In this document: piece by piece, positions 9,100-26,110 of the stretch
Layout of the letters: each line of letters starts with the position of its first letter
Numbering within the stretch: the first letter of the stretch is position 1
Source of the DNA: Raillietiella orientalis
Lineage: Eukaryota
Direction of reading: 5' to 3'
DNA length: 47,149 nucleotides
NCBI GenBank assembly: GCA_036172245.1
Contig: JAYWIR010000068.1
Span: forward strand, 434,001 to 481,149
The notes under the pieces: generated by a model
The model's input: only the letters and a program-made list of their open reading frames with translations
Told to the model about the DNA's origin: nothing
Database searches by the model: none
Program-made: the position numbers and the translations under genes

Positions 9100-9830
9100 T
9101 TACCACTGTTAGTTAGTTTTGGATGTTCGGTGTTGTACCCATGTTGATAGATGGTTGTAGCATCTTTCAACCTCAGAGCAGCTTTTGTATTGGATGTATT
9201 GATCATTATAGTTTTCATGCTGTTTACTGATTCAACTAGGAAGGCGAGCCCTTTATATAGTACTATATGAGATTGAGGATCACAACATCCTTCTGCAGTC
9301 CGTTCATCCCAGTTAGTGTAACCGTATTCACCATCAAATCCATAGTTGTCCTGCAGAGCTAATTGATATGCAGATGATGTGATTCTTTTCCCAGTCTTCG
9401 TCTATAAGGGCTAACTCATTTCTAATCTTAATTTGCTCACAATAACGCTTGAATAATGAATGTTCTCGTAAATGTATTCAGATCCTTGACAACTACCTTT
9501 GTCGCCTGTTATTTGCCAAGCTAATAAATGGTTGAAAACTTATGAGCTGTTGGGCGTAATCCCAGCTCTTAGTTGGCCTTTAGACGTTGTAAATTCTCCA
9601 TATTGATGAAGTTGATTGCGTGTTTCTCCGGACATATGAGTTCTATCGTTTACAGCAAACTGTTGTGCAACAATACTAACGTGAGAGCGCATGCCACAGT
9701 GGTAAACGATCATAGACTCCTCTAGCATGCAGGAGTATAAGTGTATATATCCAGTCCCTCTGCGTTGGAGAACCTGTACATTTAAAATATTGGTGACAAA
9801 CTCCTGCTCTTAGATACAAGTTTCAACCTG
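9100..9830 (-). pseudogene. rep: Heavily decayed CRESS Rep (unit 0)
   Basis: GTGYIHLYSCM (motif II-like), EHSLFKRYCEQIK, NGLQKDVVILNL (Walker B-like), VESVNSMKTIMI; lies immediately left of an ori-like remnant. Confidence 0.4.
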
Positions 9831-9861
9831 TGAAATTGATATTACAGTGATATTTGCGCGC

Positions 9862-9896
9862 GAGAAATTGCAACCATAGCCAATAATACTCGGGTA
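9862..9896 (+). other. Decayed CRESS origin remnant (unit 0)
   Basis: GAGAAATTGCAACC...CAATAATAC (9881-9889) aligns to CAGAAATTGCAATC...TAGTATTAC of ori1; 2 mismatches to CAGTATTAC; right arm of the stem lost. Confidence 0.4.
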
Positions 9897-10589
9897 AACA
9901 ACCGGACTGGGAAAACACCTAAACATGTTAACATAACTTGACGCAAACATGATGCAGCAATCTTATGTATCTACCTGATTGTACTGTTACGCAAGTGATG
10001 GATTGTGAGCCTATGTGCTCCGTGTGTTTTGGAATTCACTGTCACAACCCTCCATAGTTTACTGTTTGAGTGTCAACCAATACACAGTGTAATGCATTTT
10101 GCTCACTGCGATTTTATCTCCATTGTAGTCCGCATTTACTGATGATTTTGTCTGCTCAGTCCGTGGAACAAAATCAATCATCTAAACTATCATGAATAGT
10201 TGAAAAAGTGACAAGGAAGTACATCTTTAAAATGATAATGACCAACATAATCCTGCAGTGCCTTTCAAGATTGCATGTCCAGTCTATAGCCAAGCACATG
10301 TAACATTTTTCATTCGATTTTTTGGCGTATAAGCACTTCATGTTTCTGCCATAGTATAGGGTATTTATGAAATGAATGTTTGAAAATGTTAAAAATTACA
10401 GCTCTTAATGATTCAAATGATAATTTCAGCACTGAAGGGTGAAGTGTAGTTATTGTTTCAAAGGAAGCTCATGAAGAAGAAGCATTTAAATTATGCAATC
10501 AGTAACTGAAATTTCTGAATAAATATAAAATTGAGAATGTATTAGAAAGTCTAATTAAAGTGGTCAGGAGGTCAAGAGGGTTTTCGGGG

Positions 10590-11507
10590 ATGCCTGTTGT
10601 AACGCGTTATCGTTGTCGTGCTTATCAGCGAAGAATGCGGATGTTGTTTTATTTGGGGAGGCGACGTGCGGTCTCATATCGTCTCAGGGGAAATGTTCGG
10701 AATTATAATTATCGTCAAAAAGGCGTAATTCTATAAAGAGGAATACTTGGGCTGATGCTTTAATTGTTTTAAGTTCGAGAGTGGCTTTTGGTTGTCGTGA
10801 TTTCATTAAGCGTGCTGTTATTCCTCATACAATATATATGGATGATTTGCATCGTAATGAGGGAAATCAAATATCGTGTTTTGTGACCTGGAATTATTTT
10901 CTGAATGATGATAATAGAGAAATATTGAATTTGTGTGGTCTAAAGGATATGACTAATTGTTTTGAGTTCGTGTTGGTGTTAGATGGACTTTTGAACCTTT
11001 ATCTGGAACAATTACTGATGAGAATGAAGCACAGCTTGGCACATTTACTGTAGAAGGGAATTATGGTTATGTTAATTATGTTGTGGCTAATCCCAAAGAA
11101 CACGGTTGTAATACATTTGGAGAATTAACTTATTCAAATGTGCTTCATAATTTGACTTGGCATCAAACGAAGATATCATCTTTCTATTATAAATTCAAAG
11201 ACAGATGTTTGATGTTATGTAAAGGCTTATATACAGGAGTCGCCTATGACAGGCACAGGTGACTGTGTACTGTATACGAGGCCTCGTTGCCCGTGGTTGA
11301 GCACAGAAAAGGATACTCAGATGACTACAAAGATACTTGTTGGCAGTCCTGTTATTGCTAAACATGTTACTTTTAAGGTTCCTGCTGATTGGCCTTATGA
11401 GAAGATAATAGTGCCTGGTCATCAGAAGCTTGTGAAGAATTTTCCTGTTTCGAATCTACAAAAAATATTATTTTCAATTTAAAGGAGCTAGAGACAAGTT
11501 ATATTAA
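10590..11507 (+). pseudogene. cap: CRESS capsid protein, divergent and disrupted (cap0)
   Basis: Arg-rich N-terminus MPVVTRYRCRAYQRRMR; RCPWLST matches RCPWIDS and KYYFQFKG matches TYYIQFKH of cap1; several stops and frameshifts; convergent with a Rep C-terminus. Confidence 0.7.
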
Positions 11508-11509
11508 AT

Positions 11510-11995
11510 AAATTCTTTTATTTCGTTATTGTGGGTTACAATGAATTCTGTTTCTTGTTTTGAGTTGTCGTCAATGAAGTGGACAATTCATCTATCACTA
11601 CTCATGTTTTCGTACTTTGGGTCCATATTAGCCATGATGATCATGAGGACGCTTAAAAAATTTTGTGTACATTTAGTACAGCAGATGATACCATTTTTGG
11701 GCGATTCGATGAGTCCATAATTTATATGTCCCTCGACGTCCATTGTGAGGTCCATAATGATTTTCTCGCCGTTGTATATGTATGCAGCATCGCTGTTCTT
11801 GCAGTTATTTAAGTAAATGGCATCATATTGCATGTATGTATGTTTTGTCGTGGTTGTTTTTCCTGAATTGCCTTGGTAGTCGGCATAACAATGGAGGTCG
11901 CGTTCGTTTGGTTCATTTTGTATTATTCGTAGAAGGTTTAATTGCCATTTTTTTAATATTTTTCCATGCATGTCCCTTTGAATGCCGCCAAGGGC
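11510..11995 (-). pseudogene. rep: CRESS Rep, SF3 helicase half
   Basis: LKKWQ, GNSGKTT (Walker A), KIIMDLT (Walker B), NYGLIESPKNG, IIMAN (motif C), MSSDR (Arg finger). Confidence 0.88.
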
Positions 11996-11999
11996 ATGA

Positions 12000-12650
12000 C
12001 TGAATGTCGCGTTCTACCAGCTTGCCAGTTTGGTCAGTGATATCTCCCAAGACCTCTAAGGTACATCGCGATGCGCTCTGGGAGTGGCCGCTGCGTTGAA
12101 AAGAACTCCACGAGCTGTCTTTCGGCTTCGCTATATGCCGTGATGCGCGTGAACTGCGGCGACACGCGCCCAATGTTGACACATGACGTAATCCTGAAAC
12201 ATTGAGTAGCTGATTTGTCCCTTAAATTGGGGGTCTGCAACTGCCAGTTCTGCGTAGACAGCCTCGATCAAAGAGGCAATCCCATTGCAGTAGTTCTGAA
12301 TTCTAGAACTCCGCCATCCTGACTGTAACCTTGGTCTCCGTCAACTTGGAACTCATTCAGCCAAAGCGGATCGTTCCTCGTCTCAGAGGGGATGGTTGAC
12401 AAGTTCTTGGGGGTCGGAGTTGGCCTGTCTGGCTCGGGGAGAAAACTGTTGTGAAACATCAGAGCCACTTCGGCTCGGCCTGGGACGGAACCTCCTTCGA
12501 GGACCGGATCCTGAGGCTGGAGCTGATGCTGAGACTGGAGACGGAACGGCATCATCAGCTGGAAAGTTGCGAATATCTTTTAGGAAAGACCATTTTGCTT
12601 ATCTAAGCATCAACCATAAAGTTTTACAGCACAAGGTGTAAAAAGGGTAT
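12000..12650 (-). mobile_element. Probable L1/Tx1 ORF2 post-RT fragment separating two Rep halves
   Basis: GC-richer than its flanks; PFYTLCCKTLW and DPLWLNEF...GL resemble post-RT motifs of L1/Tx1 ORF2; no TSD seen. Confidence 0.45.
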
Positions 12651-12976
12651 GTAGCTGGTTCGTTAGTTTCTTGGATAGCTCCATATGTCCATGCGTGTTT
12701 GTCTTCTTTTGTGCAGTACCTTAAGTTGCTCCGTGGTGAACCGCGTGCTTTCTCGAGGTGGCACTTCTGGAAAGGTTTGCGCTTCAAGCCAGGCAAAGTG
12801 CGTGGTTCCTTTAGTTGCATGTATCCTTGGAGGTGTGGTGTGCCTGTGCTTGAGGTTTCTTTGCCGATGCATGCGAAGAAGCGGTTGCATCTGCAACATT
12901 CTTTGATATCCTTTAGGTCCTCTTCTGTAAAGTTGCAAAGGGTGATGCACCAGTTAAAAAATAATGCGTAAGGCAT
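12650..12976 (-). pseudogene. rep: CRESS Rep, HUH endonuclease half (rep1)
   Basis: MPYALFFNWCITLCN (motif I), TPHLQGY (motif II), YCTKE (motif III). Confidence 0.93.
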
Positions 12977-13063
12977 TGTGCGTGGTGTTGGTAATTCACT
13001 GTAAGTAAGACTTGGCTTTCGTTGTGTGTTAAAGGTATATATACTGCGTAACTGCGCAGAAAT

Positions 13064-13096
13064 TGCAATCTGGTAAATAGTATTACCCAGATTGCA
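13064..13096 (+). other. CRESS rolling-circle origin stem-loop ori1
   Basis: Stem TGCAATCTGG/CCAGATTGCA with TAGTATTAC at 13078-13086. Confidence 0.95.
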
Positions 13097-13156
13097 TTTC
13101 GCTGACAACGAAAATCCTTGGGAAATTCCTATATGCTGCAATTGATATTTTTAGTA

Positions 13157-13286
13157 GCTGGTTTATGTCCGCAATCGTGGAAGACTTTGGAATGCGGAAC
13201 AGGATGCTGTTGTCCACGTGGGAAGTGCGTGGCGTAACCCGACCTCGTGGAAGGCTGATAAAGTCGGGTGGGCGTGTCCCACCAGC
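13157..13286 (+). promoter_or_regulatory. Conserved multi-hairpin intergenic element, unit 1
   Basis: Closing stem GCTGGT/ACCAGC enclosing TCCGCA/TGCGGA, CCACG/CGTGG and ACCCGAC/GTCGGGT hairpins; repeated in units 2 and 3. Confidence 0.7.
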
Positions 13287-13344
13287 CAGACTGAAAAAGG
13301 GAGGGGGGATGACTTAGGTCGCCAGTACGCTGTCAAGCAGCGGA

Positions 13345-14252
13345 ATGGGATCACCTCGCGCAGCTCGCTCTCGGAAGAGGAAGGGAACAGGATCGTTTTT
13401 CTTGGCGAAGCGTCGTCGTCTGTCTCGTCGAAGAGGGGGATATAGTACGTTCCAGCGTCGTCGGCGTTGGAATGTGCGTCGTAGGCGTGTGAAGCTGTAT
13501 CGTTCACCTCGATATAAGTTGTCTCGTACGACGCGTGTGGTATCTCGGGATTTGATGTCGGGAGCTGTTCATTATAGTTCATTGGGACCGCTGACGGTGA
13601 CCACGTGAATTGTTCTTGGATGTTTACATATGACCAAACTGTCATGTCTGTTGTAGATCGTTTGCGAATAAAAAATTTGGATGTTTTCGCGAAGTTCTAT
13701 CGATATGTTAGGGTGAAGGGATGTGCAATGAAGATCGAGCCTATGTCCCTAGGTTTAACGATAGGAAATATGGGTGAAGAGTTTGGTATGAAGGTTTCGT
13801 ATAGGAATATGCTTCTGTATCAAGCTGCAAACCAAGGCGAATATTTTGGAAATAGTAAAGTAGAGGATATGATATCTGGCCATGGAGAAACTTCTGGTTG
13901 TTTCGCTCGATACTTTGGTGTTCGGGGTATCCGTGTGTATTCGCGAGTGTATTTGAGGAAGTCGGTTCCAAACTACGGAGGGCAATTGTTGCGTTATGTA
14001 CGTTGTCCTTGGATTGACAGTTCGGAAGGAAGAGATTTGGATGCTGAAACGAAAAGTTATGTGCATATGAACCGCGTACATGTGATGAAGCATATGTGCG
14101 GTGTGGACATCCCAGATGAGTCGAAGGAGGCTTGCCAGTCGGGTGTTTGTCCGAAGAACAGGCGTCTGAAAAATGGTTATCCAAAATATAGAATAACTAG
14201 AACGTACTATATCCAATTCAAGCATTTAAAAGATACTGGCTTGTATCAATAA
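13345..14252 (+). pseudogene. cap: CRESS capsid protein (cap1), one frameshift near 13585
   Basis: Arg-rich N-terminus; FYRYVRVKGCAMKIEP typical of circo-like jelly-roll capsids; YYIQFK C-terminus; AATAAA overlaps the stop (14248-14253). Confidence 0.9.
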
Positions 14253-15357
14253 AGAGACAAGTATATTGTTGATGTTGTATTTCATCAAAAAAGGGAGAGG
14301 GGGGTGACAAAGAACTCAATGTGGAATCAGGCGAGTCTCGGGTTTGCACTGCGCTAGGGCTTGAAGTGCAAGCCCAAGGGAGAATGGTTCCTGAATCATC
14401 CATCATCCAGGGAACTAGAGCTGTGTTGTCCGACTTGGAAATATCTCGAACTATCCATCTGTCACTGCTCATCTTATCGTAATTAGGTTCCCAATTGGAG
14501 AATACGAGAATATGGGGTGGCTGGAAATATTTAATGGGTCTTTGATTCTTCGAGTCGAAGATTATTCCGTTTTTAAGTGTCTCGATGGATCCGTATTGTA
14601 CCAACTCTTGGTTGTCTCTTGTGAGGTCAACCACAATGATGCGCTCACCGTTGTATATGTGAGCAGGGTCTGCCTTTTTGCAAGAGTGCATATAAAGGGC
14701 TCCTCTTTTTAGGTAGAGGAATTTCGCCATCGTGGTTTTCCCAATGCCTCCTATGGGATCAATGTATTTTGCGTTGATCTGGTTGGTGACGTATAATGTT
14801 GAGTATGTCCATTTGCCATGATTTCAATTGTAGGTTAGCAAGGGGGTTGGGATGTGCTCTGCTTGTTAGGCGGAAGCTTTCTTTTACGAAGTTAATGTTT
14901 TTTGAATAAAATTTGGTGTGATTCTTGAGGATGAAGTGTTCGTCTGCTCCGTCCTCGATGAGTTGAAGTATCTATGGATATAGGGTTATTTGTGAATTGT
15001 AAAAATGATTTGTGGTTTACCAGGTCTTGGTAGTCGGTTGGTTCGTTGGCGTCGTGGATTCTGCCGGATGTCCAGGCACGTTTGTCTTCTTTTGTGCAGT
15101 ACCGTAAGTTGCTCTGTGGACTGCCTTTTGCTTTTTCTAAATGGCTTTTTTGAAATGGTTTGCGTTTTAATCCTGGCATGGTGCGTGGTTCTTTGAGTTG
15201 AAAGTAGCCCTGGAGATGTGGTGTCCCTGTTTTAGCGTTGTCCTTGCCGATGCAGGCGAAGAGACAGTTGCAGGGCACCAGTCTTTTATTTCTTTGAGAT
15301 CTTCTTAGGTGAAGTTCATAAGGTGAAGCACCAGTTGAAGAATAACGCGTATGGCAT
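14218..15357 (-). pseudogene. rep: CRESS Rep, full length but disrupted (rep2), with putative intron 14972-15020
   Basis: WCFTL, PHLQGY, YCTKE, GGIGKTT, IIVVDLTR, YGSIETLKNG, ILVFSN, SSDRW; stop or frameshifts near 15316, 15280 and 14760. Confidence 0.93.
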
Positions 15358-15432
15358 GGTGAAATTCCCGGTAAGTGAGACTTGGTTTTGGTCGTCCGTG
15401 CGGTGGTATTTATACTGCGTAACTGAGCAGAA

Positions 15433-15467
15433 ATGCAATCTGGTCAAGAGTATTACCCAGATTGCAT
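15433..15467 (+). other. CRESS origin stem-loop ori2
   Basis: Stem ATGCAATCTGG/CCAGATTGCAT with GAGTATTAC at 15448-15456. Confidence 0.93.
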
Positions 15468-15524
15468 GTAGCTGACACGGCAAAACCTTGGAAAATTCCG
15501 TATGTAAAAGTAGATAGTGTGGTT

Positions 15525-15652
15525 GCTGGTCTTTGTCCGCAATCGTGGAAGGCTGAGGAATGCGGAACAAGCTGTGCTTGTCCACGTGATGCTCGTGGGA
15601 AAGATCCGACGTCGTGGAAGGCTGATAAGGTCGGATGGGCGTGCCCACCAGC
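15525..15652 (+). promoter_or_regulatory. Conserved multi-hairpin intergenic element, unit 2
   Basis: GCTGGT/ACCAGC; TCCGCA/TGCGGA; ACAAGC/GCTTGT; CCACG/CGTGG; ATCCGAC/GTCGGAT. Confidence 0.7.
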
Positions 15653-15710
15653 TACTCTTAAAAAGGGAGGGGGGTTAGGTTAGGTCGCCAGTACGCTGTC
15701 AATCAGCGGA

Positions 15711-16460
15711 ATGGCGTCACCTCGCGCTGTTCGTTCTCGAAAACGAAAGCGTGTAGTATCTTCTGCATTCGGAAAGCGACGTCGTTTAGTCCGTGGTCGT
15801 GCTGGTTATAGCACGTCGGCGTCGTTGGAATGTACGTCGTCGTAGATTTCGTCGTTTGCGTGTGTCTTGTGCTAGGTTGTGGAAGACAACGCGTGTTGTA
15901 GTTAGAGATTTTTTGCAAGGGGCTTCTCATTATTCATCGTTACGAACTGCGGACGGAGACGCAGTGAATTGTTCTTGGATGTATACGTATTTGGAGGACG
16001 CTTCAGTTGTGAAAGATTTATTGAAGCTTTGTAATTTAGAAGAGTATGGTCGTTATTATAGATATATGCGTGTCAAAGGTGTATCGGTAAAGATAGAGCC
16101 TATGTCGCTTGGATTGACTATAGGTAACATGGCGGAAGAATTTGGTATGAAGATGTCTTATCGGAATATGCTGTTGTATCAAACTCCAAACCAAGGGGAA
16201 ACTTTCGGTGCATTGTTTGGTATGCCTTATAGTCGTGTGGAGGATGTAATAGGAGGTCATCGGGAAACGTCTGGTTGTTTTGATCGGTATTTTGGTGTTG
16301 GTGGTAGAAGATTTTATTCGAAGGCTTTTATTGCGGAAACTGAATATTTGGAAGGTGGTCGTTTGACTAAGTATAAGCGTTTCCCATGGACTGATGTTTG
16401 GCAGGGTAGTTCTTTGGATTCAGAGACTTCCATTCGTGCTTGGTTTCATAATTTTCAAAC
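15711..16460 (+). pseudogene. cap: CRESS capsid protein (cap2), frameshifted and 3'-truncated
   Basis: MASPRAVRSRKRK..., YYRYMRVKGVSVKIEPMSLGLTIGNM, RFPWTD; ends at Tx1 APE sequence. Confidence 0.9.
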
Positions 16461-16464
16461 ACCA

Positions 16465-16745
16465 CCTGAACGCGTGGGTGAAGAAATGCACCTAGAAGAT
16501 CGAGAGGATCGGAGGGGGACGGTTGTATTGGCAATGCGGAGTTCGCATCACCTGTGGCATCGCGTTTTTTGTGAAGCTAGCAGTCGACGGCGTCGTCAAG
16601 GGCGTACGCTTCGACAAGAACAATTGGGTTGGCCAGCTGATCTTTAGGTGGTTCTATTCGATCGACCTGATCGTCACAAACGTGTATGCACCGGGCGGCA
16701 AGAATGGGTACCATGAGCGTTCGCGACCTCAGGTTGGTGGGGGAG
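16465..16745 (+). mobile_element. Tx1 family B APE fragment
   Basis: TCGIAFFVK...VRFD...SIDLIVTNVYAP, matching 41441-41944 and 45964-46356. Confidence 0.8.
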
Positions 16746-16749
16746 TCCA

Positions 16750-17105
16750 CGTTTTTTGACGGTTTTACTCGCCGCGGTCAGGCTATTATAGCCCTCGAAA
16801 ATCGTGGGTGTTGGCCACAACCCGTGCACAATTCCGAACTTTCAAGTTCATCACTCATCGCAGATCGCGCCATGCCGTTCGTATTGCCGGTTATGTGGAC
16901 CACTACCTACCGGTCCATCGACACCGGATATATCTTGCAGCCGTCCACAATCATCGGGGTGTTGATCAGGCGTTCTTCAAAGGCTATGTCCGTACAGACC
17001 ACGACGCGCTGACCGCGCTGAGGGCAGAGATCTCTAACGTTTATTTCCTGAAGGGCCTGAGCAAATGCGCATGCCGTACGGCCATCGAACAGGGGCCCAC
17101 CTTAT
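16750..17105 (-). mobile_element. Tx1 family B ORF1 fragment
   Basis: Homologous to the minus-strand ORF1 at 25570-26064 (ARAF...VHITGN...ELEKFGIVH). Confidence 0.65.
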
Positions 17106-17124
17106 GTACAAGCCGCACCGCCGA

Positions 17125-17315
17125 TTTCCCAGGAATAATACCTGGGCTCTTCTGTCGCCGTCGGATCCGCGTGGCCTCTTGGAACGTCAATGGGGACAGC
17201 TACTGACAGGATAAAGCCGACACCCTGCGAGTTCGACCTGGCCCTGCTGCATGAGATCCACGTGATAACCGCGGCAGACGTCCAGGAGATCCAGACGTTC
17301 TCGGGGTGTCGGCTG
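17125..17315 (+). mobile_element. Tx1 family B ORF2 N-terminal fragment
   Basis: FPGIIPGLFCRRRIRVASWNVNG...FDLALLHEIHV. Confidence 0.8.
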
Positions 17316-17801
17316 TTTTTCACCCGGGTGCGCCGGGATGTTTATTAATAAACTATCCAGGAACAGAGTTCCGTGTGTAATGACAAAGAAAAAACGAAGC
17401 GAGGGATCCTCGACACAGGTCGGTATACCGAAAGTCCGCAACAGGATGCAGGGGACCACAAATACAGAAATAAAAAATAAAAATAAAAATATGAGGAGGG
17501 TAAGAGACAGGGGTCTTTGGTGCGGCCGTTCCTTTTCTTCAGAAGCGGCTATGGATGCTGGCAATCTCGCTCCTAACGCGCTCTGGTAGGTGGGTCCACT
17601 CGGAAGCCGAAGACATGTTTACGCTGGCTATTGACGAAGGATGGCCACCATCTCAAACTCTCGATGGGCCTTGTCGATGGCGCGGGTGCAACAGACCGTT
17701 GCGATTACAGCTCCTAAAAACATTCCGCCTGGCATGAAGAAGCGGCGCATCAAGTCTCTTGCGGTGTCCCCCTAGTGCTTGGGAGCTGAGACCGCTGGCG
17801 C

Positions 17802-17826
17802 CGTGGTATACGTTTTTATTCTCGAG
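17802..17826 (+). repeat. 25-nt direct repeat of cap3 sequence at the left viral junction
   Basis: CGTGGTATACGTTTTTATTCTCGAG, identical to 19522-19546. Confidence 0.92.
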
Positions 17827-18564
17827 ATCTACTACAATGATGCGTTCTCCGTTGTAAATGTGTGCGGCGTCTGCTTTCTTGCATGAATGCATGTATATAG
17901 CCTTTTTTTTGAGATATAAAAACTTGGCGAAGGTGGTTTTGCCGTTTCCTCCGACTGGATCATAATACCAGTAGATTTTGCGGTTGTCTGGTTCAGATCG
18001 TATTAGTTTAAGTATGTCCATTTGCCAGCTGCGCAATTGTAAGTTTGCCATCGGGTTTGGGTGGTTTCTGCTTCGTGTTAACCTGAAGCATTCTTTAACG
18101 AAGTTGGTGTTTTTGCTGTAAAATTTAGTATGGCTTTGTAGGATATCTAGTTCTGATGCTCCGTTTTGGATTAGTTGTAGTATCTTGGGTAGAATAAAGT
18201 CATTAAGTAATTTAATTTTGCTTACCATGTCTTGGTAGTCGTTTGTTTCTTTTTGTTCTTGTATCATGCCAAATGTCCACGCTTGGTGGTCGTCTTTGGT
18301 GCAGTACCGTAAGTTGCTACGTGGACTGCCTTTTGCCTTTTCCAAGTGTGCCTTTTGGAAAGGTGTTCTTTTTAAACTGGGTAGTGTTCTGGGATCCTTG
18401 AGTTGTATGTAGCCTTGGAGATGCAGCGTCCCTGTGCTTGCGTTTTCTTTCCCGATGACTGCGAAGGTGCAATTTCTCCTGCACCAGTCCTTTATTTCTT
18501 GAAGTTCTTCATCCAAGTAATTGCATAGTGTGAAGCACCAGTATAGGAAGTGGCCGTACGGCAT
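17824..18564 (-). pseudogene. rep: CRESS Rep (rep3), open but truncated after Walker B; putative intron 18184-18225
   Basis: WCFTLCN, LHLQGY, YCTKD, LRSWQ, WYYDPVGGNGKTT, IIVVDL. Confidence 0.95.
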
Positions 18565-18644
18565 TGTTGTGTAGTGAAATTCTGTCGAGGTGAGACTGGT
18601 TTATGCCTCATGTTGTGATGGTTTATATACTGGCAAACTGCGTA

Positions 18645-18684
18645 GTATTTGCAATCCGGTCAGTATTACCCAGGTTGCAAATGC
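18645..18684 (+). other. CRESS origin stem-loop ori3
   Basis: Imperfect stem GTATTTGCAATCCGG/CCAGGTTGCAAATGC with CAGTATTAC at 18661-18669. TATA-like boxes on minus just left of all three oris (about 13036, 15407, 18622). Confidence 0.92.
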
Positions 18685-18740
18685 CTTATTCGGCAAAACG
18701 TTGGAAATTGTGCGTATGTTGCAAGTTTTTTATAAGTGGT

Positions 18741-18876
18741 GTCTGGTTTGTGTCCGCAATCGTGGAAGACTTAGGAATGCGGAACAAGATGTTCTTGTCC
18801 ACGTGTGCATGTCGTGGCATGATCCGACCTCGTGGAAGGCTCAGTTAGTCGGATGGTGCGCACGCACCTACCAGAC
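18741..18876 (+). promoter_or_regulatory. Conserved multi-hairpin intergenic element, unit 3
   Basis: GTCTGGT/ACCAGAC; TCCGCA/TGCGGA; ACAAGA/TCTTGT; CCACG/CGTGG; ATCCGAC/GTCGGAT. Confidence 0.7.
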
Positions 18877-18931
18877 TCGGAGTATACGGAGGAGGGGGCT
18901 CTATGACGTCAGTTGCAGTTGAGTCATCGGC

Positions 18932-19546
18932 ATGGCAGCACGTCGTGCGCGTGGTTCTCGTAAGGCATATCGTGTAAAGTCTAGTACTGTACCTATTAAG
19001 CGTCGTCGAATTGCTCGTACAGGTTATTCGACTTTTAAGAAGAGGCGTCCTGTATATAATCGCAGAAGGCGTAGTAGGTTGGTAGTCCTCGTTGGCGTGT
19101 TGTTAAGGCTACGCGTGTGGTTTTGAGGGATGTTGTGTTGAATGCTGAGCATTATTCGTCGTTGCGTGTAGCAGACGGGGATCATGTGAATTGTTCTTGG
19201 ATGTTTACGTTTTTTGAAAATGCTAGCAGCCTGAAAGAGATGTTGAAGGAATTGAATTTAGAAGAATTTGGTCGTTATTATCGTTATGTCCGTGTGAAAG
19301 GTGTAGCTTTCAAAATAGAGCCATTGTCTTTGGGTTTGACTATAGGAAATATGTCTGAGGAGTTTGGAATGAAGGTGTCATATAGGAATATGTTGTTGTA
19401 TCAGACATTTAATCAGAGTGAATGGTTTCGAAGTCTTGTTGTTCAACCGTATAATGCTGTTGAGAATGTTATAAATGGTCATAATGAAACGAGTGGATGT
19501 TTCACTCGGTATTTTGGTGTACGTGGTATACGTTTTTATTCTCGAG
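18932..19546 (+). pseudogene. cap: CRESS capsid protein (cap3), frameshifted and 3'-truncated
   Basis: MAARRARGSRK..., YYRYVRVKGVAFKIEPLSLGLTIGNM, ends at GIRFYSR. Confidence 0.9.
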
Positions 19547-22500
19547 CTCCAGTCCTTGGAGTCACAGTCCTTGGAGGACACCGCAGTCAAGGAGCAGGTG
19601 CGGGAGCGTTTTAACTTTCCCGCACCGCTTACAGTTCGGGGAGACAAATCCCCCGGAAACACGGTTCGTCCACAGGTTGGAGTGAAAATCCCAATGCACC
19701 AGCAGGATGACGTCCTGTTTCCAAGTTAAAGGGAACACAGAAGTGTTCAAACCAGAGGGAGGGATCACGTTCTTCGGGGGCACACTCAAATGTTCACTCC
19801 ACCGAAGGACTCCTTTCGGGATGATGCGAGGCGTGGCGGCGTCTGTCTGCTCGCAATTCCTCCAGCCGCCTATGGGTCGTTTTGTTCCTGCAATGGTGCA
19901 GGCGACCTCCCATCTCGCCGGCAGGCAGCTGTCCTCTCTTGCCCTGAGTGCTGGAAGCGCGTCGGCGAGGGGCGTGACGGCCAGGCGAGCCCACTTCTGG
20001 CTGTTCCAGACCTCATGTGCTGTGCAGTACGGGGAGAGGTTGGCGCAGCGCAGTTCCAAGAGCGAAACATCCTGCTACTTAGCCCACGCATGCAAACGTT
20101 CAGGCCGCCAGGCTTCAAAGTTGGTTGCGCGGCTAGAAATCCAGTCGTGGGTTGCCAGGAACCGCTAGAGAGGTTTCAAAGGGAAACCACAGCTTTTCGT
20201 GACGCGCTCCGTATGAGGCAGAAGCGACAGAACTCCATCGCTGCCACTAAAGCGCCGCAGGAGCAGGCGCTCGGGAGCACACCACGGAGTGGCGCTCAGG
20301 AACGTTCGAAGATGCATCTGCAGATCGATTCTCTCTAGCGTCCCATTCCGAAGGGAAGCCACCAAGTCTTTGAGGCGGATCCTGGACCCCGCAGGTCCCC
20401 ACAGAGCGTTCCTCAACAGGCTTTGCGCCTGGATTTTGATTCAGGCAGTCAAATGCCTTGCAGATATTGACCGCGAACGCCACGGCACCCGGCGCTTCCT
20501 CAGGTCGAATGCAGCAACGCCTAGCCGCGGGAGCCACAGATGCGCTTACCTGGCTGTCGTGCGCCGCGCACCTCTGCAGCTGGAGCAACGAGCTCGCGAA
20601 GAACATGTTCCTCTCCATGGCCGTCCGGGAACAGAGTAGGTCTGCTCCGGACTTACCACGGATCCTGCGATCCTGCCTAGTCGCCCGATCCAGAGCTTGG
20701 AGAACAACTTGACGTCCGAATTTACCAAGGTGATCGGACGCCAGTTGTTTCATTGGTGCATGTCTCGGCCTTTGCGGAGGCGACGCATCCTTGCTGAACG
20801 GAACGAGTCCGGGAGATTGTCCGTCTCTCGCATAAGCGCAGAAAACCTCAGCACCAGGGGGATGAGTTCCGCAGCGAAGCACTGGTAGAACTCCGCAGGC
20901 AGACCATCCTCACCTGGAGCCTTACGCTTCTTGAGGCACGCTCTGGCGGAAGACACTTCTTCCGCCGTAAAGGGCAAGTCTAGAGTGGCGCGTTGCACCT
21001 CGTCCACCGCAGGGGCATCCGCCCGCAGAAGCAGCTCCGAGAGACTGCGTTCCGTCGGCTCCCTAGCATACAACATGGAGTAGTAGCGCTTTAGGAGGCG
21101 GCGAACTTCGCCCGCGCCCGAGCACTCCAGGCCCTGGTCGTCGAGCAGACGAGCTGCTCCTGACTGCCAGACCTGGCTCTCGGCCTTGGCCTTGTACTCC
21201 GCAAGGTACCGGACGTCCGGGCATCGGGAGAATTGGCGGGCTTACAGAAACGCTCTGCTGTTGGCAACGCCTTCACGGAAGCCATAGGGAAGCACGCACA
21301 AAGGGAACCGGCTGCAGAACTCGGGGACGGATCTTTTCAGAACGTCCTTGTCCACGAGCTCCCAAACGAGCAAGCTCCGGAGATGCAGGCGGAGCTGTTC
21401 CGCAGCCACCGGGTTTCAGAGCCAGTGGGCCGGCATCCGCCAGACGTGCGTTGGAGGGCCTTTGCCAGGCGGGGGTAGCTCAAACTCCAGGCTGTGGTAG
21501 GCAGACAGCTCGGACGGCATGGGACCTCTTCGACCCACCCGACAATGCAGGTGATCGTCGAGGAACAAATGGTCCGGCAAAGCACGCATCGCTGGATCGT
21601 CGGCCAGCAAATTCGAGGCGTGCACGGACTCGCACACCTCGTTCACCAACCGCTTCTCCCGGCGACGGTGTGTCTCTTCCGATAGCGCGTGGACGCGTAA
21701 GTCTTAACGAGGTGAGCCACGTCGTGGTTGCAGTTGCTGAGCCAGCGGTCGCGCAGTCTCTGGAAATACTCGAGTTTCTCGGTGTTTCGCGCGAAATCAC
21801 ACGGCGTGTACATGTTCGTGACGACAAGTTCGATCGATTCGGACCAGTTGAGCCCACACGACCTTCCTCGTCGAAACAAACGTTCCGCACCGCCTCCGCC
21901 ACTCTGCCTCGGACGAGAAACGCGACTCCGCACGTGTGTGCGCAGTCCTGGCGCCAGTGTAGCGTCCCCCCCGCGCGCTCTTCCAGATCCGATGCCTGGC
22001 GTTCGGAGATGCTACCTATCTCCTTCAGCAGCAGCAGATCGAACGCGCGCAAAGCGTTGGTTACCTTCCGCCTTTTGTCAGCGTAGCGCAGCCCGTTGAT
22101 ATTCCAACAGGCCATGCTGACGCGACGAACGAAAGCGGGTCCATGCATTATTGCTTCGGACATGTCGGTGAGCTCCTCGCCCCGTCTCCTCGAGAAATCA
22201 ACTGGCAGCACAGCGGATTGGGAAGCGGAATCGCTCCCTTTCACCGCCACATCGCACCCAGCTGAGTCCTGGGAGCCTAGATTCATCGCCTCGGGCTGGT
22301 ACCGCTTCCGGCAACAGGCTTGTGCTTGCGCAGTTTAGGGTGTCGCGCTTCCGGGTTACCTCGGGGTGCGCGCACGATATGTTTTCAAATCGGACTCCAC
22401 CTCGGAGTTCGTATGTTGAGAACGAGACTGGTGTTTAGCGTGTCTCTTTGTTTTGGCAGGTGGAGGCTTGCCCCGCCCGCGCGGGAGTCGCCGCAGTCGC

Positions 22501-22989: not shown

Positions 22990-23127
22990 GTGGAGGCTAC
23001 TTTATCTTAAGTATTGAGAAGTCTGAATTTGGAAGAATTCGCGAAGTATTATGGATATGTGCGAATGAAGGGTTGTGCGACGAAGATAGAGCCGATGTCG
23101 TCAGGATTGACAATAGGTAACGTGGGA
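22990..23127 (+). pseudogene. cap: CRESS capsid fragment (cap4)
   Basis: LRSLNLEEFAKYYGYVRMKGCATKIEPMSSGLTIGNVG. Confidence 0.88.
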
Positions 23128-23128
23128 G

Positions 23129-24660
23129 TTGCCACCCAGGTACGCCCGAGGCGTTTATTAATAAAAAACTCTACAATCGCGGTACCAGGCCCCGCTGACG
23201 GCCTTATGCACGGGACCTACCGGGACGCCGGGACGCAGCCCGGCGTGGCACTCCCCGGCAGCGAAAGGGGATGGGGAAAAACAAAAGTAAAAATAAAAAC
23301 GCAAACAAACAAAAGAGGTTGGAGGGCAGGGAAGGGATCACTGTTCGCTGAGAGGAGGGCCCATCCGTTGAAGGAAGCCCTCGAGGTCCATCCGTATGTT
23401 CCCCAGTTGGGGCCATCCAGCAGCTCTCCGCAAGAAGCGTTGGGCATATGGGATGACATCCCTCGCGTGTTGACCCACTCCTTGTTGGTGTCGCTCCATG
23501 CCGCCACGATGCCTCGGACGCAGCACAAGGCTGCAAGGGCTGCGGCTGGCTGCAGGGCGTCCTTCACGAAGAGGGGCCGAAGAACGTCTCTGGGGGTGCT
23601 GCCCGTAGGGAGCCCTAGGGTCGCCCCGAACCGTTCCCAGAGGGGTCGGATGGCAGCACAATCCACAATAAGGTGGGGAAGCGACTCCCGCTCCCCGCAC
23701 CTGGCACACGCAGGATCCACAGCTCCCCTCGTCCAGTGGAAGCGGCGCGCGTTGCAGGGTAGACCCCAGTGCAACAAAAGCAACGCCGACTCTTGCCACT
23801 TAAGGGGCAGGATCCTGGATTCCTTTAATACCGGGGGCCACTTCAGCACATCCGTAGGGATGGCGAGCAGCTCGCCCCATCTTCTTAGTCCTCGCGGCTG
23901 GACGCTCGGGATCGTGGCGTCCGCCAGTTGACCCATGGTCGAGCCACTCATTCTCTTCTCCCGTCCCTGGATACAGCAGGAGACTCGCCACCTTGGCGTC
24001 CGACTGCTGTGAAGCGCCCTCCTCAGAAAAGGCAGCGCCGTAGCCAGGCAGGTTGTCTCTGCCCACGTGCTTCTAGCTGGATTCTCCAGGAGATTCCTCA
24101 GAGTGCAGTGGGCGTGGAGGCCGCATCGGAGAGGATTCCGCATTACGTGGCTTCTGTGGTTCACCACAGTCCACGTTCCGATGCTCTCCTCCAGCCAGGC
24201 GGAGGAGTTGGCGGGGCAGAAAACCATCCAGCTGTTCTCCATGGCCAACGATGCCATGCGCCCGAGCTGTAGGCCGCATCTTCTGATCTTCCGGCCGGGG
24301 CACAGAAGAAAAGACGCGAGTCCTTCGCATCGGGACACACGCCTGGCGAGCAGGTGGGCCGGAATGCACCAAGGGGTGCTTCATAACTTCGCTGCGATGG
24401 CGAGGGTTCACCATCGCAGCTGAATCTCTACTCGCTCCATCGTCAAGAGGCCGAGACAGCCATCCCGACGTGGAGCACACAAGTCCTTCAACGGGACTCG
24501 GAGCCTCCCGTTGCCCCAAAGGGCTACGCGAAGAAGGTCCTTTGTCCTCTTTTTACATTCTTTGGGAGCGGGGCAAACAAAAAGCAAGGGGCAAAGGATG
24601 AAGGCCGCAAAAGCGTTGCAAACCGCGGCTCTTTCCGGCAAGTGAAACTTACCTTCCAGA
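23129..24660 (-). mobile_element. Tx1 family B ORF2 3' part plus 3' end
   Basis: LLLHWGLPCNARRFHW...CARCGERESLPHLIVDC; AATAAA and hairpin at 23133-23159. Confidence 0.88.
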
Positions 24661-24669
24661 AAGCTGGCT

Positions 24670-24940
24670 GTTGATGATTTATTGCGAAAGTAAGAGTTGG
24701 ATGATTTCGCGAAGTACTATAGATACGTGTGTGTAAAAGGATGTGCGACGAAGTTAGAGCCAATGTCTTTAGGCTTGATGATAGGAAATATGGGTGTAGA
24801 GTTTGGCATGAAGGTGTCGTATAGGGATATGGTGCTGTAACAGGCTGCGCACCAGGGAGACTACTTTGGAAGTTTGGAAGGTCATCCATACAGCTAAGTA
24901 GAGGATACTCTAGCTAGCCATGCTGAAAGTTGATGTTTTT
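24670..24940 (+). pseudogene. cap: CRESS capsid fragment (cap5) with stops
   Basis: DDFAKYYRYVCVKGCATKLEPMSLGLMIGNMGVEFGMKVSYRDMVL*QAAHQGDYFG. Confidence 0.88.
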
Positions 24941-25280
24941 GGAGTAGAACGTAGTATGATTGTGTAGGATGGAGAGTTCATCGGCGCCATCTTTGATAAT
25001 TTGGAGTATTTAGTGGGAGAAAGTTTTTGATCTTGTTGTAAATGAATTTTGCCTTACTTGGTGTTGGTATGAAGCTGGTTCGTTGTTTTCTTGTATGGCT
25101 CCGTATGTCCATGCATTCTTGTCCTTGGTGCAGTACCGTAGGTTGCTACATGGTGACCCTCTGGCTTTTTCAAGGTGGCATTACTGGAACAGCTTGCGCT
25201 TCTAGCCGGGTAAGGCGCGTGGTTCTTTAAGTTGTAGATAGCCTTGCAAGTGAGGCGTTCCGGTGCCGCTTATGCTCCTT
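24932..25280 (-). pseudogene. rep: CRESS Rep fragment (rep5)
   Basis: GTPHLQGYLQLKEPR, HLEKARGSPCSNLRYCTKD, ILQIIKDGADELSILHNHTTFYSKN. Confidence 0.88.
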
Positions 25281-25289
25281 TTTAGGGTT

Positions 25290-26110
25290 ACCGTCCGGGT
25301 TTTTCTGTTTTTTTTCCGCGGTTGGAGCCTTTTTTACTTTTCTGGCCGCTATAAGTTGCCAGCCCTCTTCCTCTCCCAGCACTGTGGAAGGTTGATCCTC
25401 GGACTTTTCTTTGGGAGATTGAGGCGCTGGCAGCTTCTGTCGGCCAGTGTCCGTATTAGGTATCGCGACCTTCGAAGTGCGTTTCCCCTGCGCTTGATTC
25501 GCAGCAGAGGGAACCGGGGTGGGGCGTTTCGGACACGCGCCGAACGTGGTCCCGTTCCCCGCACAGGTGTCACCGTATATTGGGACACTTCTTGCGTAGG
25601 TGTCCTACGGAATCACAGTAACCGCAATATCGGGGCTTTCCCACATACCAAAGGTCCACGTTCTCTTGTGCAACCTCCAGTTTGTGGGGAAGCCCACAAT
25701 TTTCTCTTACGGTCAAACGCACTGCAGCCTTTTCCCCGAAAAGGCTGTTATAGCCATTAAAAATCGTTGGTTTGGGCCACTGCGCGTGCACCTCGCCGAA
25801 CTTTTTAAGTTCGTTCCCAACCGCTGACCGTGGCATGCGGTTTGTGATGCCGGTCAAGTGGACCCCCACGGAGCGCTCTATTGATACCGGCAGGATCTTG
25901 CGGCCGTCAACGTTAAGCGGGGCATGGATAAGGCGTTGAGCCAAAGTGATGTCTTTGCTCATCACCTCGACCCGCTGCCCGCAGCTGAGGACGGAGAGGC
26001 CCTCAAGATCCTTCTCCAGGATGTTTGCATCTTGCACCGCCTTACTAAATGCGCGTGCCGTCAAACAACTTTCCTACCTGATATACAAGCAATGGCTTGT
26101 ACCCGGCGGC
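25290..26110 (-). mobile_element. Tx1 family B ORF1 fragment
   Basis: ARAFSKA...VDLWYVGKPRYCGYCDSVGHLRKKCP; homologous to 44338-45171. Confidence 0.85.

What the first reader, a model, noticed from the sequence alone, without database searches (positions are those of the whole stretch)
13157..18876. Covarying multibranch structure with twin 19-nt TCGTGGAAG loops in every viral intergenic region
Seen at 13157-13286, 15525-15652 and 18741-18876, between ori and cap. A closing stem encloses up to four hairpins. Hairpins 1 and 4 have loops of exactly 19 nt in all three units, and all six loops contain TCGTGGAAG(A/G)CT. Compensatory changes: GCTGGT/ACCAGC vs TCTGGT/ACCAGA; ACCCGAC/GTCGGGT vs ATCCGAC/GTCGGAT; ACAAGC/GCTTGT vs ACAAGA/TCTTGT. 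I know no described CRESS element of this form. Inferred candidates: complementary-strand origin or primase site on the ssDNA, packaging signal, or structured cap 5' leader.
Basis: partly seen in the sequence, partly recalled or inferred. Interest (0 to 1): 0.72.

Follow-up and report, generated by a model that had tools for sequence, protein, structure and literature searches.

The report
Conserved twin-hairpin block beside viral origin
Three diverged, broken copies of a small circular DNA virus lie head to tail in a eukaryotic chromosome, and all keep the same 130-base non-coding block with two look-alike hairpins between the replication origin and the coat-protein gene; it is a real viral signal whose job is still open.

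Summary
The sequence observation holds. All three blocks exist at the stated coordinates. Each has two hairpins with 19-nt loops, and all six loops carry TCGTGGAAGRCT (6 matches against 0.51 expected).

The setting is a head-to-tail array of three circovirus-like endogenous units: Rep on the minus strand, an origin hairpin with AGTATTACC on the plus strand, and Cap on the plus strand. The units diverged as viruses. Cap dN/dS is 0.13-0.23 with saturated synonymous sites. Hairpin 1 of the block is nevertheless the most conserved 40 nt of the whole unit.

Support for base pairing is moderate:
- RNAalifold finds the same fold independently.
- Variable columns fall in loops and linkers.
- The twin hairpins keep 36 of 36 pairs despite two swapped base pairs.
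- Formal covariation over three sequences is not significant (2 of 35 pairs; 51 of 500 shuffles).

No outside homologue, Rfam family or tRNA was found.

Function is unresolved. I favour a signal on the single-stranded virion DNA, probably for second-strand initiation (about 0.33). A cap promoter/enhancer is close behind (about 0.28). A scanned cap leader is disfavoured.

The parts
13157..13286 (+). Block, unit 1: closing stem 13157-13162/13281-13286; H1 13168-13198; H2 13199-13213; H3 13214-13232 (CACGTG at 13218-13223); H4 13237-13269; H5 13270-13280
15525..15652 (+). Block, unit 2: H1 15536-15566, H4 15604-15636
18741..18876 (+). Block, unit 3: H1 18753-18783, H4 18822-18854. The closing stem (7 bp) and H5 are shifted by about 4 nt relative to units 1 and 2.
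13175..13186 (+). TCGTGGAAGACT in the H1 loop of unit 1. The other five copies are at 13245-13256, 15543-15554, 15612-15623, 18760-18771 and 18830-18841.
13061..13099 (+). Origin hairpin of unit 1, with TAGTATTAC in the loop on the + strand. Units 2 and 3: 15433-15467 and 18647-18682. The block starts 57, 57 and 58 nt after the hairpin ends.
13036..13056 (.). TATATATA (13036-13043), then two ACTGCG repeats (13043-13048 and 13051-13056) next to the origin stem on the rep side. These are candidate rep TATA box and Rep iterons (inference).
   Evidence: read from the sequence; the function is inferred
13292..13347 (+). Between block and cap: A-rich TGAAAAAG plus a G-run (13292-13309), CAGT at 13323-13326, cap ATG at 13345. 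This is a candidate cap core promoter with a short leader (inference). The cap ATGs of units 2 and 3 are at 15711 and 18932. The block ends 58, 58 and 55 nt before the ATG.
   Evidence: promoter reading inferred
13345..14252 (+). Cap of unit 1, with one frame break in the arginine-rich N-terminal part. Cap of unit 2 runs 15711-~16500 and cap of unit 3 runs 18932-~19560; both are cut off by inserted host repeats.
17830..18564 (-). Rep of unit 3 (PF02407, E 1.5e-15), with a 42-nt GT..AG intron at 18225-18184. Rep of unit 2 lies at 14218-15350 (intron 15020-14972). The N-terminal part of Rep of unit 1 lies at 12602-12976.

Best explanation
The block is a conserved cis-acting signal of an unsampled circovirus-like (cyclovirus-arranged) virus lineage. 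It is preserved here in three endogenous genome copies.

Its core is an old internal duplication: two paralogous hairpins, each with a 6-7 bp stem and a 19-nt loop. Each displays the same 12-nt word, TCGTGGAAGRCT. The two are held side by side by abutting helper hairpins and a closing stem.

I think it most likely acts on the single-stranded virion-sense DNA. That is the window's + strand, which carries the nick-site nonanucleotide. The folded block would then be the entry point for a sequence-specific host factor that starts complementary-strand synthesis. This would be a counterpart of the single-strand origins of rolling-circle plasmids and phages, and of the nanovirid CR-M.

Shown here: the conservation, the hairpin potential, and the pattern of variation.
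Inferred: the strand on which it acts, the factor, and the function.

My odds: the element is functional, 0.9. Pairing of the twin hairpins is selected, about 0.7. It acts on ssDNA, about 0.45-0.5. It is a second-strand origin specifically, about 0.33.
For: The units diverged as replicating viruses, so what they share is constrained.
- Cap dN/dS is 0.13-0.23 with dS 1.5-3.0.
- Rep N-terminal dN/dS is 0.16-0.29.
- The origin hairpin and nonanucleotide are kept in all three units.

Conservation of the block.
- Pairwise identity is 78-81%, against 57-69% in the spacer next to it.
- The H1 window has the highest three-way identity of the whole unit: 0.85, against 0.72 for the origin and 0.80 for the best coding window.

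The pattern fits a fold.
- Paired columns are invariant in 57 of 70 cases, unpaired in 32 of 60.
- 29 of those 32 lie in the 38 columns of the two 19-nt loops.
- The H3 loop (2 of 9 invariant; its length also differs) and the H3-H4 linker (0 of 4) are free.

Pairing.
- H1 and H4 aligned as paralogues pair in 36 of 36 cells, and 3 of 6 pairs are changed on both sides. 0 of 500 shuffles reach this, and slid controls pair in 12-44% of cells.
- There are two more two-sided changes between units, in H2 and H4.
- Unit 3 rebuilds the closing stem from different bases: 7 bp, chance 0.016. Units 1 and 2: 0.053 and 0.077.
- RNAalifold gives the same multibranch fold without being told.

Stability and strand.
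- As ssDNA, isolated H1 and H4 fold at -4.3 to -5.6 kcal/mol, about half the origin hairpin's -6.7 to -10.1.
- The nonanucleotide is on the + strand. By established rolling-circle logic the + strand is then the packaged strand.

Precedent (passages read).
- The lagging-strand origin of porcine circoviruses 'has not yet been identified'. Plasmid single-strand origins are imperfect stem-loops. Mastreviruses and a nanovirus carry primers at a non-coding region (PMC2690592).
- The nanovirid CR-M beside the CR-SL serves complementary-strand synthesis (PMC10880892).
Against: - There is no direct evidence for any function. Only three copies exist, all in one window.
- Formal covariation is not significant: 2 of 35 pairs, 51 of 500 shuffles.
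- The stems of H1 and H3 never vary, so they say nothing about pairing. They could equally be protein-binding sequence.
- The fold is not strand-specific. Minus-strand folds are as good or better: RNA z -3.2 to -4.1, DNA -1.8 to -3.5.
- On plus-strand DNA, unit 1 gives low pair probabilities for the closing stem (0.24) and H4 (0.26). H3 and H5 of unit 3 score 0.13-0.16.
- In a scan along the units the block (z -2.4, -2.9, -2.6) is less extreme than the origin region and some coding windows, which go down to -5.1.
- The position, about 40-190 nt upstream of the cap start, is exactly where promoter elements are expected. Known second-strand signals of nanovirids and mastreviruses are primer-binding stretches, not loop-presenting hairpins.
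- No outside relative could be found to test the fold.
Confidence: 0.33

Rival explanations
1. Upstream promoter/enhancer block of the cap (late) gene, and possibly also of the divergent rep gene. It would act in the double-stranded replicative form. The twin 12-nt words, the CACGTG box and the GGAA cores would be host transcription-factor sites. The hairpin potential would be secondary or auxiliary.
For: - Position: the block ends 58, 58 and 55 nt before the cap ATG. It is followed by an A-rich/G-rich stretch and a CAGT about 20 nt before the ATG, which could be a core promoter (read; inference).
- ATG is not avoided inside the block (3, 3 and 5 against about 2 expected). This fits DNA upstream of the transcription start.
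- The most conserved letters are the 'loops', that is, sequence words in direct orientation.
- The spacing is fixed on both sides although the spacer sequence drifts: 57, 57 and 58 nt from the origin.
- Published precedent: the PCV-1 cap promoter holds a direct repeat 19 nt apart that can form a hairpin. The authors call it a CLE, and it raised reporter expression (PMC3041773, passages). The spacer in their oligonucleotide table contains TGTGGGAAGAG, close to TCGTGGAAGAC here. That likeness is a lead only.
- CACGTG and a GGGAAATTCC at 13120-13129 look like E-box and kappaB-type sites (motif names recalled, not tested).
Against: - Transcription-factor sites do not explain why both arms of H2 and H4 changed together. 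Nor do they explain why H1 and H4 differ by two swapped base pairs yet stay complementary, or why unit 3 rebuilt the closing stem and H5 from other bases.
- 28 of 31 invariant positions in H1 is more than typical short degenerate sites need.
- The geminivirus CLE word GTGGTCCC is absent from all three intergenic regions, even with one mismatch allowed.
Confidence: 0.28
2. Encapsidation signal: the two identical loops on the virion ssDNA are bound by capsid protein subunits and nucleate packaging.
For: - The structural evidence is the same as for the best explanation.
- Two identical loop words on neighbouring hairpins suit a multimeric binder.
- The element lies on the strand that carries the nick site.
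Against: - I know of no sequence-specific packaging hairpin in circovirus-like viruses (from my own knowledge; the five searches were not aimed at this).
- The structure is not strand-specific.
Confidence: 0.15
3. RNA element: a structured part of the cap mRNA leader, or of an intron or precursor on either strand. The twin loops would bind a host RNA-binding protein, for example for export or translation control.
For: - The block lies 55-58 nt upstream of the cap ATG.
- RNA folds reproduce the hairpins. Minus-strand RNA folds are the most significant (z -3.2 to -4.1) with helix probabilities of 0.89-0.99 in units 1 and 2.
- The virus uses host splicing: there are rep introns.
- Two splice-like signals flank the region: GTAAGT-type words on the + strand upstream of the origin, and a pyrimidine tract plus AG on the - strand just outside the block (read). 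These are leads only.
Against: - The 3, 3 and 5 upstream ATGs in the block, with upstream reading frames of unlike length, argue against a scanned leader.
- Plus-strand RNA z-scores are -0.85 and -1.54 in units 1 and 2. In unit 1 the closing stem, H3 and H4 have probability 0.03 or less.
Confidence: 0.08
4. Accessory Rep-binding repeats (iterons): the CGTGG core occurs three times in direct orientation and once inverted (CCACG in H3).
For: A direct-plus-inverted arrangement of a short core is typical of Rep-binding sites in geminiviruses (recalled). Here the core sits in the H1 loop, both H3 arms and the H4 loop in all three units.
Against: - The repeats lie 76 and 146 nt from the origin stem, whereas iterons normally abut it.
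- A better candidate, ACTGCG twice, sits directly beside the stem on the rep side.
- This reading does not explain the stems.
Confidence: 0.06
5. No function of its own: the similarity is a leftover of recent common ancestry or of gene conversion between the tandem copies, and the hairpins are chance.
For: Tandem copies can homogenise one another. The formal covariation test is not significant.
Against: - Flanking sequence is far more diverged (synonymous sites saturated, spacer 57-69% identical), so any conversion would have to be limited to the block.
- Within the block the differences are patterned by the fold.
- Twin hairpins with a shared loop word occur nowhere else in 47 kb.
Confidence: 0.05

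Closest known systems
Hairpin-capable repeat ('CLE') in the capsid promoter of porcine circovirus 1 (Tanzer et al. 2011, PMC3041773; passages read)
   Same: - A circovirus element upstream of cap.
- Complementary arms about 19 nt apart that can form a hairpin.
- A purine-rich GTGG(G)AAGAG-like word between the arms.
- Measured enhancer activity in the published case.
   Different: - The PCV-1 element is single. It lies inside the rep coding region, and its arms are direct repeats of AGTGGGCCCG.
- Here there are two paralogous hairpins with unlike stems, set in a closed multibranch block within a true intergenic region.
- Homology is not shown; the word likeness may be chance.
Geminivirus conserved late element (GTGGTCCC)
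   Same: A short repeated word in the intergenic region between the origin and the coat-protein gene, tied to late-gene expression (as described in PMC3041773).
   Different: The word itself is absent from all three intergenic regions, even with one mismatch allowed. The CLE is not defined by a hairpin.
Complementary-strand signals of ssDNA replicons: nanovirid CR-M, the mastrevirus small intergenic region, and single-strand origins of rolling-circle plasmids and phages (PMC10880892 and PMC2690592, passages read)
   Same: A conserved non-coding block near or apart from the nick-site hairpin. It is needed because the incoming genome is single-stranded. Plasmid single-strand origins are folded imperfect stem-loops.
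   Different: - CR-M and the mastrevirus region work through a bound primer, not loop-presenting hairpins.
- No sequence likeness was tested, because no such sequences were at hand.
- The function here is only inferred.
Origin stem-loop with nonanucleotide of Cressdnaviricota
   Same: A hairpin on the same strand that shows a conserved loop word to a protein. It is present 57-58 nt upstream of the block in each unit.
   Different: The loop word is different and has no likeness to TAGTATTAC. The loops are 19 nt long, and the element is duplicated and embedded in a multibranch fold.
Genome-wide conserved secondary structures in eukaryotic ssDNA viruses (Muhire et al. 2014; seen only as a citation and title in PMC6993869; the paper itself is not held)
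   Same: The general idea that ssDNA virus genomes hold selected base-paired elements beyond the origin hairpin.
   Different: I could not read the paper, so I cannot say whether an element of this form is listed there.

Membership tests
Circovirus-like CRESS-DNA virus genome (context of the element) | HUH Rep of the Viral_Rep family | tested here: met
   PF02407: E 1.5e-15 (unit 3) and 1.2e-14 (unit 1), both above the curated cut-off.
Circovirus-like CRESS-DNA virus genome (context of the element) | Origin hairpin with a TAGTATTAC-type nonanucleotide in the loop | tested here: met
   AGTATTACC occurs 3 times, each in the loop of a 9-13 bp inverted repeat.
Circovirus-like CRESS-DNA virus genome (context of the element) | Capsid protein of the circovirus family | tested here: inconclusive
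   Circo_capsid scores E 8.8e-5 and 23.3 bits, below the cut-off of 36.2. The match covers only the arginine-rich N-terminus. No homologue was found in 1.84 billion representatives, by word search or in viral contigs.
Cyclovirus-type genome arrangement (ICTV description, recalled) | Nonanucleotide on the cap-coding strand; rep on the other strand, often with an intron | tested here: met
   The motif is on the + strand with cap, and rep is on the - strand. GT..AG introns of 49 and 42 nt lie at the same place in two rep copies. Unit length is about 2370 nt, longer than I recall for cycloviruses. Membership of the genus is not claimed.
Any Rfam family / tRNA-like element | Match to a curated covariance model, or a cloverleaf found by ARAGORN | tested here: not met
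   No Rfam match at E<=1 over 12500-19600 on either strand. No tRNA or tmRNA in 12900-19000.
Geminivirus/circovirus conserved late element | Core word GTGGTCCC upstream of the coat-protein gene | tested here: not met
   None of the 51 window matches (one mismatch allowed) lies in 13000-13345, 15370-15710 or 18590-18930.
Geminivirus/circovirus conserved late element | Enhancer activity on late-gene transcription | not testable with these tools
   Needs reporter assays.
Single-strand (complementary-strand) origin | Works only in one orientation on ssDNA; nascent complementary strands or primers map to it | not testable with these tools
   Needs biochemical mapping. Folding is equally possible on both strands.
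Single-strand (complementary-strand) origin | Non-coding, folded, conserved block on the packaged strand | tested here: met
   No frame is conserved across the block. The repeated word is read in two frames, and a 2-nt length difference falls in the H3 loop. For fold and conservation.
Rep iterons | Short repeats directly beside the origin stem | tested here: not met
   The TCGTGGAAGRCT words start 76 and 146 nt after the stem ends. ACTGCG repeats occupy the usual place.

The most novel reading that the evidence does not exclude
This is the first recognisable single-strand origin of a circovirus-like virus of eukaryotes. It would be a folded module on the virion DNA whose two identical 19-nt loops recruit a host factor that primes the complementary strand. 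It would then be a eukaryotic counterpart of the single-strand origins of rolling-circle plasmids, from which these viruses are thought to descend. It has been preserved as a 'fossil' in three endogenous copies of an otherwise unsampled virus lineage.
Probability: 0.3. Interest if true: 0.75.

Novelty: new variant of a known kind. Interest (0 to 1): 0.5.

Why it matters
How circovirus-like viruses turn their incoming single strand into a duplex is still unmapped. The review read here says the lagging-strand origin of porcine circoviruses "has not yet been identified" (PMC2690592). A compact 130-nt candidate with two defined loops would make that question testable with oligonucleotides and single-stranded test circles, without a live virus.

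If it is instead a late-promoter module, it extends the one published circovirus case (PCV-1) to a distant lineage, and it shows that hairpin-capable repeats upstream of cap are a recurring design.

Either way, the case shows that arrays of endogenous copies which diverged as viruses before insertion can be used for comparative analysis of non-coding signals of virus lineages that have never been sampled.

Tried and rejected
Searches for outside copies of the block. All came to nothing.
- Two TCGTGGAAG words 50-75 nt apart in viral contigs gave 116 loci. None shares more than 15 further bases with the units or encodes a Rep.
- Covariance model R1, built from the three blocks, finds only those three in the window (best other hit 6.2 bits, E 0.28). 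It finds nothing in the 79 loci of distant Rep relatives.

Searches for relatives of the virus.
- Rep as a single sequence in viral contigs: none.
- Rep by word search: 4 proteins at 26-49% identity.
- Rep alignment in viral contigs: 560 of 626 candidate stretches are relatives, but the best 79 kept are only 25-45% identical.
- Cap: 0 of 58 candidates, 0 of 1.84 billion representatives, 0 of 113 pattern stretches.
- No whole genome is held for this window.
- Earlier notes of this scan hold nothing on this genome or sequence.

Readings rejected.
- Protein-coding: rejected. Frames are not conserved, there is no shared start codon, and the repeated word falls in two frames.
- tRNA-like or a known RNA family: rejected.
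- Geminivirus CLE: rejected as membership.
- A hairpin in the cap-rep 3' region (14340-14376) as an alternative second-strand signal: not significant (z -1.2), and it is present in only one intact junction.

Other notes.
- The Rep rows involving unit 1 used a wrong frame. They are replaced.
- PMC12211011 (abstract only) concerns the origin stem-loop of a nanovirus and does not bear on this element.

Full report
WHAT IS THERE

The window is eukaryotic DNA. No prokaryotic genome is held for it. It is rich in reverse-transcriptase repeats: RVT_1, E 5.9e-33 at 2486-4507; the nearest atlas clusters are eukaryotic.

Between about 12600 and 19600 lie three head-to-tail units of a circovirus-like genome. 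Each unit has:
- Rep on the minus strand (PF02407, E 1.5e-15 and 1.2e-14);
- an origin hairpin with AGTATTACC in its loop on the plus strand, at 13079, 15449 and 18662;
- an intergenic region;
- Cap on the plus strand, recognised only weakly through its arginine-rich N-terminus (Circo_capsid E 8.8e-5, below the cut-off).

One full unit measures 2370 nt.

The copies are broken.
- Each cap has one frame break, at a different place in its N-terminal part.
- Host repeats cut off cap 2, rep 3 and cap 3.
- Two rep copies keep a short GT..AG intron at the same position.
- Further cap and rep fragments lie at 23011-25333 without an intergenic region.

THE OBSERVATION

- TCGTGGAAGRCT occurs six times in 47 kb, only in the six predicted loops and always without mismatch. 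0.51 were expected, and 0 of 100 shuffles reached 6.
- Hairpins 1 and 4 have perfect stems of at least 6 bp and 19-nt loops in 6 of 6 cases.
- A mechanical scan looked for neighbouring hairpins sharing a loop word of at least 8 nt. It finds only these three places on either strand of the window.
- In 79 genomes of distant Rep relatives, only 5 loci show any such pair that is not an assembly-overlap artefact, and those share just 8-9 nt.
- Minimum-energy folds as DNA or RNA reproduce the multibranch picture. So does RNAalifold, which was not given the structure. The picture is a closing stem; H1, H2 and H3 abutting without linkers; then H4, a small H5 and the closing arm, again abutting.

THE COPIES ARE INFORMATIVE

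The units are only 65-75% identical overall.
- Cap dN/dS is 0.13-0.23 with dS 1.5-3.0, which is saturated.
- Rep N-terminal dN/dS is 0.16-0.29 (which replaces the mis-framed unit 1 rows).
- The origin hairpin and nick-site word are kept.

A host-domesticated gene would have no reason to keep those last two features. So the units diverged as replicating viruses and were inserted, or recombined into the array, afterwards. What they share therefore reflects viral constraint.

Against that background:
- The block is 78-81% identical pairwise, while the spacer beside it is 57-69% identical.
- The 40-nt window over H1 has the highest three-way identity of the whole unit: 0.85. The origin reaches 0.72 and the best coding window 0.80.
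- The distances origin-to-block (57, 57, 58 nt) and block-to-cap ATG (58, 58, 55 nt) are fixed although the sequence there drifts.

IS PAIRING SELECTED?

For pairing:
- Paired columns are invariant in 57 of 70 cases, unpaired columns in 32 of 60.
- Unpaired conservation is concentrated in the two 19-nt loops (29 of 38).
- The H3 loop (2 of 9, and of different length in unit 2) and the H3-H4 linker (0 of 4) are free.
- H1 and H4 are paralogues: 71-86% identical as direct repeats. Aligned together, 36 of 36 cells pair and 3 of 6 pairs differ on both sides (CA/TG against AC/GT, plus T-A against C-G). 0 of 500 shuffles reach this, and slid controls pair in 12-44% of cells. These are about three events, not seven.
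- Between units there are two more two-sided changes, in H2 and H4.
- Unit 3 rebuilds both the closing stem (7 bp, chance 0.016) and H5 from bases about 4 nt out of register with units 1 and 2.

Against pairing:
- On the three-sequence alignment 25 of 35 pairs never vary. The two double changes are matched by 51 of 500 shuffles.
- Unit 1 has a G.G mismatch in H2.
- Folding z-scores are moderate: plus DNA -1.7, -2.8, -3.5; plus RNA -0.85, -1.5, -3.5.
- In a scan along the units the block (-2.4, -2.9, -2.6) is less extreme than the origin region and some coding stretches.
- Pair probabilities are high in unit 2 but patchy in units 1 and 3.

For comparison, the certainly functional origin stem shows no compensatory change at all among these three units, and it carries a mismatch and a wobble in unit 3. 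Three sequences simply have little power.

I put the odds that the twin hairpins are selected as hairpins at about 0.7, and for the full closed multibranch at about 0.45.

WHAT IT IS NOT

- It is not coding. No frame is shared, there is no common start, the repeated word is read in two frames, and an indel sits in the H3 loop.
- It is not a known RNA family or a tRNA-like element.
- It is not the geminivirus CLE.
- It is probably not the Rep iterons, for which ACTGCG repeats beside the origin stem are better placed.
- It is probably not a scanned cap leader. There are 3, 3 and 5 upstream ATGs where about 2 are expected.

WHAT IT MOST LIKELY DOES

The nick-site word lies on the plus strand. By the established rolling-circle scheme, the plus strand is then the packaged one and the only long-lived single strand. 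H1 and H4 are stable there on their own: -4.3 to -5.6 kcal/mol as DNA.

Two look-alike hairpins that hold the same 12-nt word in a loop of fixed size look like a landing site for a sequence-specific protein. They have different stems but preserved complementarity.

Incoming circovirus-like genomes must be made double-stranded by the host.
- For porcine circoviruses the site where this starts is unknown.
- Rolling-circle plasmids use folded single-strand origins.
- Nanovirids use the CR-M block next to the origin hairpin.
(PMC2690592 and PMC10880892, passages read.)

I therefore favour a second-strand initiation signal, at about 0.33.

The near-equal rival is a cap promoter/enhancer module, at about 0.28. 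The position is right, the conserved words are in direct orientation, and recognisable box-like words surround it. PCV-1 has a published hairpin-capable repeat 19 nt apart in its cap promoter, with enhancer activity (PMC3041773). What this rival does not explain is the complementarity.

Further readings:
- packaging signal, 0.15;
- RNA element, 0.08;
- accessory Rep sites, 0.06;
- no function, 0.05.

The first two readings are not exclusive. A folded single strand that mimics a promoter is how several bacterial single-strand origins work (recalled).

NOVELTY AND VERDICT

No outside homologue of the block or of the Cap exists in the collections I could search. Five literature searches returned nothing that describes such an element. 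Muhire et al. 2014 could not be read.

The kind of thing is known: a conserved hairpin-bearing cis signal in the intergenic region of an ssDNA virus. The twin-loop multibranch form is not. I rate it a new variant of a known kind. It is real and unexplained, but it rests on three copies and has no functional evidence. Interest: 0.5.

Noticed in passing
window 12600-19600 (units at 12600-14252, 14218-16500, 17830-19560): The three head-to-tail units are as diverged as separate virus species: 65-75% nt identity, synonymous sites saturated, cap dN/dS 0.13-0.23. A concatemer of one genome would start out identical. The array therefore suggests repeated insertion or recombination of different viruses at one locus, or a mixed concatemer.
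   Followed up: partly
window 13578-14249, 15790-16500, 19078-19560: The capsid protein has no detectable relative: 0 hits with a three-sequence profile among 1.84 billion representative proteins, 0 by word search and 0 in viral contigs. Its core (KIEPMSLGLTIGNM.EEFGMK.SYRNMLLYQ) is strongly conserved among the copies all the same. This is an unsampled capsid lineage.
   Followed up: yes
window 15020-14972 and 18225-18184 (minus strand): Short GT..AG introns of 49 and 42 nt lie at the same position of rep, between the nuclease and helicase parts, in two units. The 42-nt one is in frame, which is why rep of unit 3 reads through as one long ORF.
   Followed up: partly
window 13043-13056; also 15413-15430 and 18630-18646 (approximate): ACTGCG-type hexamer repeats sit between a TATA-like word and the origin stem on the rep side. 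They are likely Rep-binding iterons.
   Followed up: no
window 13292-13309 and 14288-14306: The same A-run plus G-run (AAAAAGGGAGGGGGG-like) occurs just upstream of cap and again just downstream of the cap stop in unit 1. On the minus strand it reads as a pyrimidine tract, followed by AG at the upstream site. Its meaning is unknown.
   Followed up: no
window 12998-13005, 15369-15376, 18588-18595 (+ strand): A GTAAGT / GTAAGT / GTGAGA word, resembling a 5' splice donor, is conserved on the cap-sense strand upstream of the origin. It lies opposite the rep 5' untranslated region.
   Followed up: no
window 9800-12013: An AT-rich stretch holds an origin-like GAAATTGCAAC... word at about 9867, an arginine-rich open frame at 10590-10736 and a Rep helicase fragment at 11588-12013. 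It is possibly an older, more decayed unit. The block model finds nothing significant there (best hit 5.5 bits at 10137-10188, E 0.71).
   Followed up: partly
window 18208-18340 (+ strand): This is the strongest DNA folding z-score of the scan (-5.1). It falls over the rep intron region of unit 3, not over the block.
   Followed up: no
window 2486-4507 (+) and 35710-38610 (-): Two long reverse-transcriptase ORFs lie in opposite orientation on either side of the viral array. Related repeat fragments interrupt the viral units at about 12013-12640, 16500-17830 and beyond 19560.
   Followed up: no
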